Below, piece by piece: positions 2,886-63,091 of a stretch of 64,000 nt of DNA. The stretch's first letter is position 1; each line of letters begins with the position of its first letter. The notes beneath the pieces were generated by a model that saw only the letters and a program-made list of their open reading frames with translations, had not been told where the DNA came from and made no database searches. This DNA is from Eledone cirrhosa (Eukaryota): assembly GCA_964016885.1 (NCBI GenBank), contig OZ024747.1:16926001-16990000 (forward strand), given 5' to 3'. The translations under genes and the position numbers were made by a program.

Positions 2886-3156
2886 TATTTACATGCACAC
2901 ACAGACACACGCACACACACACACACACACACACATATATATATATATACACATATATATATATATATATATATATATATATATATATATATATATATAT
3001 ATACATATATATATATATATATATATATATGTAGGAGGTGAGTTTTATTGTAGTACAATAAAGCAATGCAGATATCGGATAAGAAGCACTCTACAGTTTG
3101 TAGGACTGGAGTATGGATAATATAAGATCAAAAGATGGTTAAAGGAGTTCCATGTA

Positions 3157-3223
3157 TTTTATTATGCGCATTTCAAAAACAAACATCATCATGCAATAAT
3201 ATTTGTGTTTTCATCAGATAAAA
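3157..3223 (-). ncRNA. Type I hammerhead ribozyme (family C, left arm)
   Basis: ttttat CTGATGA [stem II] GAAA tgcgca TA|ataaaa; 6-bp stem I and palindromic stem III (ATGCGCAT). Confidence 0.8.
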
Positions 3224-3351
3224 CAGGAGAACATGATATGGAGGCTAAAAAACACTTGTGGATAGTGCAGTGGATAGTGCAGTGGATAATATGTTGATTT
3301 AAAACTGCACTATCCACAAGTGTTTTTTAGCCTCCATATCATGTTCTCCTG

Positions 3352-3418
3352 TTTTATCTGATGAAAACACAAATATTATTGCATGATGATGTTTGTTTTT
3401 GAAATGCGCATAATAAAA
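3352..3418 (+). ncRNA. Type I hammerhead ribozyme (family C, right arm)
   Basis: ttttat CTGATGA aaacacaaatattatt-gcat-gatgatgtttgttttt GAAA tgcgca TA|ataaaa. Confidence 0.82.
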
Positions 3419-3632
3419 TACATGGAACTCCTTTAACCATCTTTTGATCTTATATTATATATATATATATATATACACACACATGTATATATATATATAT
3501 ATATATATATATATATATATATATATATATATATATATATATATATATATATATATATACACATATATATATACACACATATATATATATACATACATAC
3601 ATATATATATATACATATATATATATATATAT

Positions 3633-59922: not shown

Positions 59923-60724
59923 TATATATTGGGCGGTGCCCCAGCATGGCCCCAGCCGGATGGCTGAAACAGGTAAAAGAGTAAAAGAGTATATATATAT
60001 GTATATATATATATCTATATATATATATCTATATATATATATATATATATATATATATATATATATATATATAACGAATGTGCATGGTTTAGTGGTTAGG
60101 GAATAGAACTTACAATCATGTGTTGTGTATATAATATTCATGCATATATATGTGTGTGTGCGTATGTATATTTATGTATGCGTGTGTATGGATTTGTTTG
60201 TGAGCTTATACACATATGCATATCTATTTAGGATTACTTCGCCTGTTGTTTACGATATAGCGATAGATGTGCTTTATTAATGCGTCATTCACTGACTATT
60301 TAATGCATCACTAGCTTTTCAGTGGAATCATGATTCAGTACCATATTTATTGCATATATAGCTTTATCTATATATGAAATCCGAACTTTAAGACAATATT
60401 TTTACCTTTGTTTTGTCTGGCAATGTGCTAATGTGATATATATCCCCTGAAATCAATAATCAATCACAACCACATTTTCAAAGTTGGAATTTTTCAAACA
60501 ATCTTCAACAAAGTTAATATACTTATGTGTCTTAAATTATTCCACTGCTTGATTTACGTAATACATTATTTCAAACCTAAGGTTTACTCTAAATACTTTA
60601 AGCTCTTTTATATAATTTAGATCGCATTTCAGGGAATAAAAAACACTCGTCCCACCACATTAAATCATTTTCAGGCAAACCCCAGCATCTGACCCAAAAT
60701 TGTGATGCTTCCTCTTTCTACAAA

Positions 60725-60912
60725 TAATTGTTTCTACTTTTGGCACAAGGTGAGCAATTGCCCCAGTGCATTACTGGTGCTTTGTTTCATCGACCCGGTA
60801 AGGATGAAAGGCAAAGTTAACTTCGGAAGGATTTGAACTCAGAATGTAAAGGGTCATAACTCTATGCTGCAAAGCATGGTGTCTGACACTCTACTGATAC
60901 TGCCAATCGACC
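60725..60912 (-). mobile_element. tRNA-derived SINE
   Basis: TTTGGCACAAGG...ACTGGTGCTTTGTTTCATCGACCC...GGATGAAAGGCAAAGTTAAC...ATTTGAACTCAGAATGTAAAG...CTGCCAATC. Confidence 0.75.
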
Positions 60913-62752
60913 AATAATATCTGCCAAATCTGTCATCAATTTTCTGCTTTCATCCATGCTATGTCTACCATCTCTACCTCAGAGTCAGCAATGACACTAT
61001 GTCCAGTACTTTCTGCACGGAACCCCGGACATCTAGATCTGACTCTCTACTCATGTTGTTCCCAAATGAGTAAACATACAACAATTTAAACATAACATCA
61101 ATAACATAAATCTCAATGACATAAATCTCAATGACCTCATAGGGTCTGTAAATGTCATAGACACTGTTCATTCCTCAACATCGACCAAATAAAAATGATC
61201 AAGCTCCTAAAACATGTGTACTAGTTTAACTATTCATACCATATAGTAAATACTTTAAATCTATCTTTAAGAATATCATTGATATTTCAACATTTTCTGC
61301 TACAGATTGAAAGTGAAAAGTGGATTTTAAGTTTAATCAAATAATTCCTGAACATGTATTTCCAAACACTTGGAGTATTAAGATACAATAGATAGAAGTA
61401 TAAATTGAAATATTGAAGACTATTTTTGGTTGGTAGTTTATTTCTTCATATATATATATATATATATATATATATATATATATATATATATATATATATA
61501 TATATATATATATATATATATATATATACATATATTTCCTTTTCAAATCTTCAGATTTATAAATATATTATAAGAACCAATATGAGGATAATGTTATTTT
61601 GTGAATAAATAAAATATTTTAAAAGTATATATATTTATCATATTTAATACATTTGAGTATTTGGAAAGCTATACATTATTTTTAAATCACATTTCTGTAA
61701 CACATTGCTGGGGAAGAGAAATCTGTGGAAATATTTAAAACAAAAGCAATATTTTAAAGAAATATATTGATTTTCGTTATATTTGTTTTGTATTTTGTCT
61801 TATAGGACAATTTTTACAGAAAGATCAAAGAGCAAAAAATCATATCTGTTATATGGAAGTTTACAGTGAATAAATAAGAAAAATGTCATAGTTATATCTT
61901 ATGTTACCGAAGAACATGCAAATAACAAAGACGCAAGGAATATTTGTAACGTTATTAAGAATATATAAACTATGATATATTTATAGAAGCAGCATAACGC
62001 ACAATTATATAACATCATCATTATCATACCTTACACATGGAAAATATATTTTACTATGCTTATTCGTTTTGTTGGCGAAAGTAAAAATGAAGCATCTTTC
62101 CAAATTATATAAATTTGCTTTCTCACTAGAATGGCAATAAGAAATTACAATGATATATATGTATGTATATATGTGCGTGTGAGTGTGTGTGTGTGTGTGG
62201 AGAGAGATAGAGTAATCTAGCATGATATTCTGTACTAATCCTGCTTATCTACAAGTTACTGTATATATATTCAATTAAACTTACATATCAATTGCAAGTA
62301 TTCTTATATTGGTTTCCAACTATTTATGGTGTATGTGTAAATGTTGGACAATGCAAACAGAGGGTGAAATTAAGCGATTGTTTTATTCATAGTTTTACTA
62401 TCGTTTTAGAGGTGTTATCGATCAAAGTGAATAGAAAGAGTGATTAATGAATAGTAGATAGGCGCCTCGTATTATTTGCCTTTTTTGCTTTTATTATTAA
62501 ACCTATATATGTGACTCTACAGCCCGTTTAAATGCTTATCGGAATCCAATATGGGGAAAGATTACTTCGAAAGTACTTAGCGCTCACCACTTACTCTCTT
62601 TGGAATCGTTATCTTTACTTCCGCACTAGATTGAGTTCTAACAGCGTTATTGGCTTTATCATAGTTAGGTGTATATCAGTGTATGTATATCTATATCTAT
62701 CTATTATATATATATATATATATATATATATATATATATATATATATATATA

Positions 62753-63091
62753 ATGTAGGAGGTGAGTTTTATTGTAGTACAATAAAGCAATGCAGATATC
62801 GGATAAGTAGCACTCTACAGTTTGTAGGACTGGAGTATAAATAATATAAGATCAAAAGATGGTTAAAAGAGTTCCATGTATTTTATTATGCGCATTTCAA
62901 AAACAAATATCATCATGCGATGACATTTGCCTTTTCGTCAGATAAAATAGGGAGACATGATATGAAGGTTAAAACACACTTGTGACTATTCATCTGACGG
63001 AAACGCAAATGTCATCGCATGATGATATTTGTTTTTGAAATGCGCATATTAAAATACATGGAACTCTTTTAACCATCTTTTGATCTTATAT
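62753..63091. mobile_element. Family C foldback copy 2
   Basis: Same tail and end points as 3030-3458 with a different hinge. Confidence 0.9.
62881..62947 (-). ncRNA. Type I hammerhead (family C copy 2)
   Basis: ttttat CTGACGA aaaggcaaatgtcatc-gcat-gatgatatttgttttt GAAA tgcgca TA|ataaaa. Confidence 0.8.

What the first reader, a model, noticed from the sequence alone, without database searches (positions are those of the whole stretch)
3030..63091. Asymmetry rule: one arm ends at a distal tail, the other at a fixed internal TA-rich site
Seen: HHR-sense 3' ends face outward on both sides. One arm carries an extra 40-160 nt (A 56, B 55, C 87, F 158, G ~100, L ~80, N 40, P ~95) and the other stops at an internal site: TATAACAATA (A/B), CTTATA (C), TAAATA (D), TTATA/GATATA (E), TTATAAT (F), CAATATAT (P). 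End points recur across copies while hinges vary. Established: a short extra 3' tail on one pLTR is known for Penelope. Inference: both strands of a cut, self-complementary (TA)n target prime cDNA synthesis, one at the RNA 3' end and one by annealing to an internal UA-rich site, and the two truncated cDNAs join by microhomology.
Basis: partly seen in the sequence, partly recalled or inferred. Interest (0 to 1): 0.72.

Follow-up and report, generated by a model that had tools for sequence, protein, structure and literature searches.

The report
One-tail rule of Penelope insertions
The mirror-image repeats here are cut-short copies of Penelope-type jumping genes, and in 161 of 164 clear cases one arm carries an extra tail and the other does not, likely because the two cut strands of the target DNA each start a copy at a different one of two signal-marked sites inside the same RNA.

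Summary
The rule is real. The foldbacks are 5'-truncated Penelope-like element (PLE) insertions in (TA)n, of Hydra-type and Neptune/Nematis-type families. Of 170 outward-facing pairs, 161 were tailed + tail-less, 3 symmetric and 6 had one off-site end.

In six families the sequence runs on past it, in four shown to enter the ORF. Both ends are internal sites with 2-5 nt of TA microhomology. In four Hydra-type families each site lies 6-9 nt before a copy of one covarying RCTC…GAGY stem. Fold-back self-priming fails: the tail-less arm is the longer in 70 of 132.

Best reading: two-strand priming from two start sites, likely on one RNA, with repair-type joining at the hinge. Inverted copies, one-sided tails, TA targets and two internal starts are published (PMC8557442, PMC11167929). 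I did not find the strict coupling or the twin stems in print. This scan noted twin hairpins and two-strand priming before, on other DNA of this genome and of another genome.

The parts
3031..3458 (.). Family C foldback (Hydra-type PLE 3' end): tailed arm left (tail 3031-3116), tail-less arm right; hammerhead motifs at 3217(-) and 3358(+)
3088..3112 (-). Proximal RCTC…GAGY stem in the C tail, a few nt 3' of the internal end
4800..5177 (.). Family A foldback: tail-less left, 55-nt tail right
6289..6520 (.). Family D foldback (Hydra-type): tail-less left, tail right with stem at 6438-6457
10641..11182 (-). Family T partial tandem (~316-nt unit); shows the sequence running on past the tail end
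11209..12077 (.). Family E foldback: tailed left, tail-less right
12090..13755 (.). Family D insertion: inverted tail-less pLTR (hammerhead motif 12190-12142, minus) joined to the GIY-YIG coding end (12399-12854, plus) and 3' UTR
15764..15857 (+). Tail-only H copy between two TA runs, beginning at the internal site
16595..17281 (.). Family B foldback: tail-less left, 56-nt tail right
20100..20450 (.). Family H foldback: tail-less left, partial tail right (off-site end)
20577..21152 (.). Family F foldback: ~158-nt extension left; PLE membership not shown
24637..25541 (.). Family B foldback: tail-less left, tail right
40054..40405 (-). Solo tailed G arm followed by solo tail-less A arm
43090..43840 (.). 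Family L three-armed insertion with a tail-to-tail centre; stem at 43581-43598
50575..50931 (.). Family G foldback (Hydra-type): tailed left (stem 50622-50645), tail-less right
52201..52387 (.). Family G foldback: tailed left, tail-less right
52405..53217 (.). Family E foldback: tail-less left, rearranged tail right (stem 53130-53154)
56023..56481 (.). Family N foldback (Neptune/Nematis-type linker): tail-less left, 38-nt tail right
56970..59925 (.). Family P long nested foldback: ~94-nt tail left, tail-less right
62755..63091 (.). Family C foldback: tailed left (stem 62812-62836), tail-less right
63128..64000 (.). Solo tail-less B arm (63128-63247, +) and the tail-less left arm (from 63891) of a foldback whose tailed arm lies just beyond the window

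Best explanation
These are head-to-head, 5'-truncated insertions of endonuclease-bearing Penelope-like retrotransposons in (TA)n, one arm ending at a proximal and the other at a distal fixed site inside the pLTR-ORF unit, and they likely form when the two cut target strands each prime reverse transcription at a different one of those two sites. Step 1 (inferred): the GIY-YIG domain cuts both strands of (TA)n. Step 2 (inferred): in Hydra-type families two tandem RCUC…GAGY stems about 80-95 nt apart load two RT molecules, likely on one RNA, each 6-9 nt 3' of its start. Step 3 (sequence-shown, role inferred): 2-5 nt of pairing between the primer and a U/A stretch sets the exact base. Step 4 (inferred): both cDNAs stop early and are joined by short microhomology or with a few added bases. 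The tail is the interval between the two starts.
For: Shown here: 161 of 164 on-site pairs are tailed + tail-less, and the 6 off-site pairs are lopsided the same way; arms 63:62 in unselected DNA. Ends fixed: 453 of 472. The tail end is internal: 25 of 30 D ORF-leader loci carry pLTR + tail directly upstream, 3 more the junction only; C 282 and H 596 genome matches with 0 control matches, about 95 of each 100 listed sharing one continuation, which enters an RLRW/SDKT ORF. Those two searches were a prediction made from D and G (note). Stem covariation A-T 9, G-C 12, G-T 1, A-C 1 in 23 stems, Fisher p=1e-4. RCTC within 18 nt of the site in 22 of 27 long-tail clusters, shuffled mean 3.7 of 35. 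Tail-less arm longer in 70, tailed in 31, equal in 31 of 132; in 26 the tailed arm barely passes the proximal site. From print: PAc cleaves and extends both strands, starts at two internal sites that bound the tail, needs RNA to +172 though starting at +111-118, and is modelled as a dimer (PMC11167929).
Against: No transposition, RNA or empty allele was observed; all mechanism is read from finished copies. PAc starts at a site reported as not homologous to the cut DNA, with no start-site difference between strands, so coupling was not seen in vitro. Symmetric copies exist: 3 of 170 and 4 tail-less pairs among 8 both-abutting de novo cases. 8 of 35 clusters show no perfect microhomology. Short-tail families lack the RCTC stem (0 of 8). 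The motif was noticed after the fact and the clusters are related, so the p-values are optimistic. In 106 of 132 pairs the arms overlap, which on one RNA needs strand displacement. Arm-to-arm similarity (1.3% vs 3.7% to other copies, 66 pairs) is confounded by age and gene conversion.
Confidence: 0.68

Rival explanations
1. Two strands prime at two starts as above, but on two separate RNA molecules; the one-of-each rule comes from an asymmetric protein complex.
For: Arms overlap in 106 of 132 pairs, easy with two templates. Arm similarity does not show a single molecule.
Against: In D and H, 12 tailed arms stop within 16 nt of the proximal site against 7 and 2 in the flanking bins, as if blocked on a shared RNA; a tail-only copy sits at 15764-15857. 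The sample favours long arms, so this is suggestive only.
Confidence: 0.15
2. Both cDNAs start at the distal site and the endonuclease then cuts one of them at the proximal AT-rich site (resolution of an intermediate, as suggested in PMC8557442).
For: Craig et al. ascribe the tail to EN-mediated resolution; the EN prefers AT-rich DNA including its own pLTR junction; both sites are AT-rich.
Against: Two RT starts bounding the tail were mapped directly in PAc; the same covarying stem follows both sites; only 1 of 170 pairs is double-tailed.
Confidence: 0.08
3. One reading: one strand primes at the RNA 3' end or in read-through (UA)n, the other by simple annealing to an internal UA-rich site.
For: Microhomology at the internal site is real. 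A tailed copy in (TA)n could be transcribed into (UA)n; no RNA ends were examined.
Against: The unit runs on past the tail end; that end has its own stem at the same spacing; better TA matches are unused (G 44, B 10, H 7 sites).
Confidence: 0.05
4. One cDNA or an antisense RNA folds back and copies itself (self-priming, discussed in PMC3846280), stopping at the internal site.
For: Palindromic hinges occur; 31 of 132 pairs have equal truncation points; proposed in print.
Against: The copy cannot hold more than its template, so the tailed arm should never be the shorter; it is shorter in 70 of 132, often by kilobases.
Confidence: 0.04

Closest known systems
Canonical EN+ PLE insertion unit (Craig et al. 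2021, PMC8557442, Fig. 2 legend and passages; Arkhipova et al. 2013, PMC3846280, passages)
   Same: Partial tandems, adjacent inverted 5'-truncated copy, tail often at one end only, (TA)n targets, hammerhead in the pLTR.
   Different: Described as 'often' or 'optionally', with 30-40 nt tails; here 161 of 164 and tails of 38 to about 160 nt.
Poseidon element PAc in vitro (Frangieh et al. 2024, PMC11167929; main text and methods read)
   Same: Both strands cut and extended, two internal RT starts, tail equals their interval, RNA needed 3' of the start.
   Different: PAc start reported as non-homologous to the target, in one AC-rich stem-loop, with no strand coupling; here TA microhomology, twin stems and one start per strand.
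Hydra clade of PLEs (PMC8557442, section 11 read)
   Same: DKT, RW motif, CxCx5C linker, C-terminal GIY-YIG, hammerhead, (TA)n insertion in families C, D, G, H.
   Different: Start-site stems and end coupling are not in the passages read; its supplements were not opened.
L1 twin priming (recalled; only search listings seen)
   Same: Two primers from opposite target strands give an inverted 5' part joined by microhomology.
   Different: In L1 one primer uses the poly(A) end, the other a variable site, and the segments hardly overlap; here both sites are internal and fixed and the arms usually overlap.

Membership tests
EN+ Penelope-like elements | Single ORF with RT and GIY-YIG endonuclease linked to the repeat end | tested here: met
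   D: ~690-aa ORF, PF01541 hit on the window piece, ORF-UTR-pLTR-tail in L122; EN in sense for B, G, H, N; ORF start after the C tail. Pfam gave no hit on the three long D frames.
EN+ Penelope-like elements | pLTR-ORF partial tandems | tested here: met
EN+ Penelope-like elements | Type I hammerhead motif in the pLTR | tested here: inconclusive
   Core and stems by motif scan in C, D, core in B; none found in the G, H, N, A, E references; no Rfam hit; activity untested.
EN+ Penelope-like elements | Inverted 5'-truncated copy with one-sided tail | tested here: met
EN+ Penelope-like elements | RT phylogeny with known PLEs | not tested
   38 homologues found, none named; no tree built.
Hydra clade (C, D, G, H) | DKT motif, RW(K) motif, CxCx5C linker, no CCHH, (TA)n target | tested here: met
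   D has all by eye; G and H have the linker; C and H have RLRW and SDKT, G has RLRW. RWK reads RWC, RWR or RWI here.
Neptune/Nematis clade (A, B, N) | CX2-5CxxC-type linker before a C-terminal GIY-YIG | tested here: inconclusive
   Cys motifs read by eye in partial frames; clade not placed by a tree.
EN+ Penelope-like elements (families E, F, L, P, T) | Link to a PLE ORF | not tested
   Architecture only; E, L carry the RCTC…GAGY stem; F does not and may be another kind of repeat.
L1-type twin priming | One primer at the RNA 3' poly(A), variable internal site, non-overlapping segments | tested here: not met
   it works like twin priming but is not the L1 form.

The most novel reading that the evidence does not exclude
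Penelope-like elements integrate by an obligate two-ended reaction: one RNA carries two tandem protein-loading signals, each placing an RT on a different strand of a double-strand cut, so inverted copies, the one-sided tail and the absence of a separate second-end step all follow from one mechanism unlike LINE TPRT.
Probability: 0.45. Interest if true: 0.75.

Novelty: new variant of a known kind. Interest (0 to 1): 0.52.

Why it matters
How PLEs make inverted copies and one-sided tails is named as unresolved in PMC8557442 and only partly answered in PMC11167929. A 98% one-of-each rule excludes independent choice of start site and excludes fold-back copying as the general route. The twin stems give defined RNA elements to mutate in an existing type of assay. 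Annotation also benefits: these palindromes are PLE stubs, not MITEs or miRNA hairpins. The elements and their layout are known.

Tried and rejected
Unmasked self-BLAST timed out. Two B-core genome searches returned nothing because common words are skipped, so 30 B loci come from a tail-including query. Rfam gave only below-threshold hairpin and microsatellite matches. Pfam missed the long D frames. A two-copy structure prediction of the D protein (residues 1-490) gave no verdict. Six D 'double-tailed' pairs came from loci chosen for the ORF leader and were set aside as upstream pLTRs; one search counts only TA-abutting ends. The C 'S+S' at L060 is a tail split by another insertion. PMC138580 was not held; the PAc supplements held as text had none of my four terms. 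The octopus repeat paper only counts Penelope copies. The retrozyme preprint (parts 1-3 of 5) does not treat ends.

Full report
SETTING. The window is 30.7% G+C with no N and rich in (TA)n. It lies in a 3.0-Gb assembly. I worked from 390 loci plus the window, 2.0 Mb. Of these, 664 kb were unselected: the window, 200 kb beside it and 40 spaced 10-kb pieces.

OBSERVATION. A de novo screen of the unselected DNA gave 49 with one arm abutting TA and the other 25-200 nt from it, 16 with the second arm further from TA, 2 abutting on both sides and 32 on neither; over all loci then held, 160, 51, 8 and 84. Of the 8, two are family T with a TA run inside the tail, two are family F, and four are true tail-less pairs. 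With family references (A/B, C, D, G, H, N) and both ends in TA, 170 pairs gave 161 tail-less + tailed, 2 double tail-less, 1 double tailed and 6 with one off-site end. Independent choice at the observed 63:62 arm ratio would give about half symmetric. Some loci were chosen with tail-bearing or tandem queries, which does not select against double-tailed pairs; the unselected part gave 30, 0, 0 and 2.

IDENTITY. The window holds a GIY-YIG fragment at 12399-12854 (PF01541). Its relatives show ORF, long 3' UTR, hammerhead motif, internal site, tail and (TA)n in that order (L122). Family D is therefore the 3' end of an EN+ PLE and the arms point outward in ORF sense. The ~690-aa frame has DKT, an RW motif and CxCx5C, the Hydra diagnostics of PMC8557442 section 11. 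G and H have the same linker, N and B a CX2-5CxxC-like one. No tree was built. E, F, L, P and T were not tied to an ORF.

THE TAIL END IS INTERNAL. Upstream of the D ORF leader, 25 of 30 loci carry pLTR plus tail running straight on, and 3 more show the junction. G (2 loci), B (2), T (5) and N (1) also run on. In D and G the sequence after the tail end repeated an RCTC…GAGY stem that also follows the proximal site. I tested this on C and H by searching tail end + 2-12 nt + RCTC: 282 and 596 matches, 0 for the reversed control, and about 95 of each 100 listed share one continuation. In 15 of 15 C loci and 13 of 15 H loci this continuation is present, and most lead into a Hydra-type frame. The pattern demanded RCTC, so the evidence is the uniform continuation, not the motif count. 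The outer pair covaries in 21 of 23 stems. RCTC follows the proximal site in 22 of 27 long-tail and 0 of 8 short-tail clusters. In B the same 7 bases follow both ends, perhaps an equivalent signal; this was not tested.

MICROHOMOLOGY AT THE STARTS. 139 of 160 asymmetric elements could be aligned at the proximal end; 21 were dropped. They formed 35 clusters, one split by hand. The modal perfect match to the TA flank averaged 2.3 nt against 0.5 for other positions of the same templates, and 4.6 against 2.6 matches in 8 nt; 8 clusters had no perfect match. Distal ends show AT, TAT, ATAT or TATA. Better TA matches elsewhere are unused in 5 of 6 families. Pairing thus seems to trim a position set by something else (inference).

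HINGES. In 132 pairs (135 less 3 whose tailed arm was an upstream pLTR), the tail-less arm reaches further 5' in 70, the tailed in 31, and 31 are equal. Fold-back copying needs the tailed arm to be at least as long, so it fails as the general route. Among 73 hinges with 0-7 nt overlap the mean is 2.4 nt against 1.3 in simulated junctions (p=3e-9); 41 of 132 carry 3 or more extra bases against 2.3 expected. That pattern resembles end-joining repair (recalled). Paired arms are closer to each other than to other copies, but age and conversion confound this.

MECHANISM. Shown: two fixed internal ends, one per arm, short TA matches, twin covarying stems in four families, joined truncated arms. Inferred: double cut, two RTs, one RNA, repair joining. 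PAc supplies biochemical precedent for both-strand extension, two starts and a need for RNA 3' of the start, but reports no target homology and no strand difference (PMC11167929, parts 1-3 of 4 read).

WHAT IS KNOWN. Inverted copy, one-sided tail and TA targeting: PMC8557442 (passages and section 11) and PMC3846280 (passages). Hammerheads: PMC4209133 (passages). The strict coupling, the arm-length test and the twin stems were not found in nine searches. Subscription papers, Repbase notes and the supplements of PMC8557442 were not seen and may bear on this. Earlier notes of this scan report twin hairpins and two-strand priming on other DNA. I saw the two-strand note, after stating that reading, and the hairpin notes after my note. 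They are unchecked AI notes and are not counted as support.

VERDICT. A real and nearly strict rule in known elements. It sharpens an open mechanistic question and makes it testable. New variant of a known kind, interest 0.52.

Noticed in passing
window 6715-9165: Broken LINE-type retrotransposon (RVT_1 hit at 7646-8266) inserted between long TA-rich arrays.
   Followed up: partly
window 20577-21152; L340, L107, L177, L159: Family F is a ~440-nt tandem unit with internal TA runs, no RCTC stem and some both-extended foldbacks; it may be another kind of repeat.
   Followed up: partly
window 38264-38356 and 39390-39482: Two opposed copies of a short repeat with matching TA-abutting ends 1 kb apart; likely separate insertions, not one foldback.
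   Followed up: no
window 43090-43840: Three-armed L element whose second palindrome joins two tails, the opposite of the usual head-to-head layout.
   Followed up: partly
window 56970-59925: 3-kb nested foldback with several inner inverted pairs and a 97-nt tandem repeat (57228-57502).
   Followed up: no
L017, L013, L044, L051 (family C); many family G copies: Both arms often stop at the same 5' point (C about 170 nt, G about 50-65 nt before the site), which suggests run-off at an RNA end or a stall at a hairpin.
   Followed up: partly
L012, L197 (family B): The 7 bases after the distal end equal those after the proximal end; possibly the short-tail counterpart of the twin stem.
   Followed up: no
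L224, L280, L039, L162 and others: Different families stack end to end in the same TA run; new insertions use the TA flanks of older ones.
   Followed up: no
L151, L152 (family D): Full-length arms begin exactly at the distal site of the upstream pLTR.
   Followed up: partly
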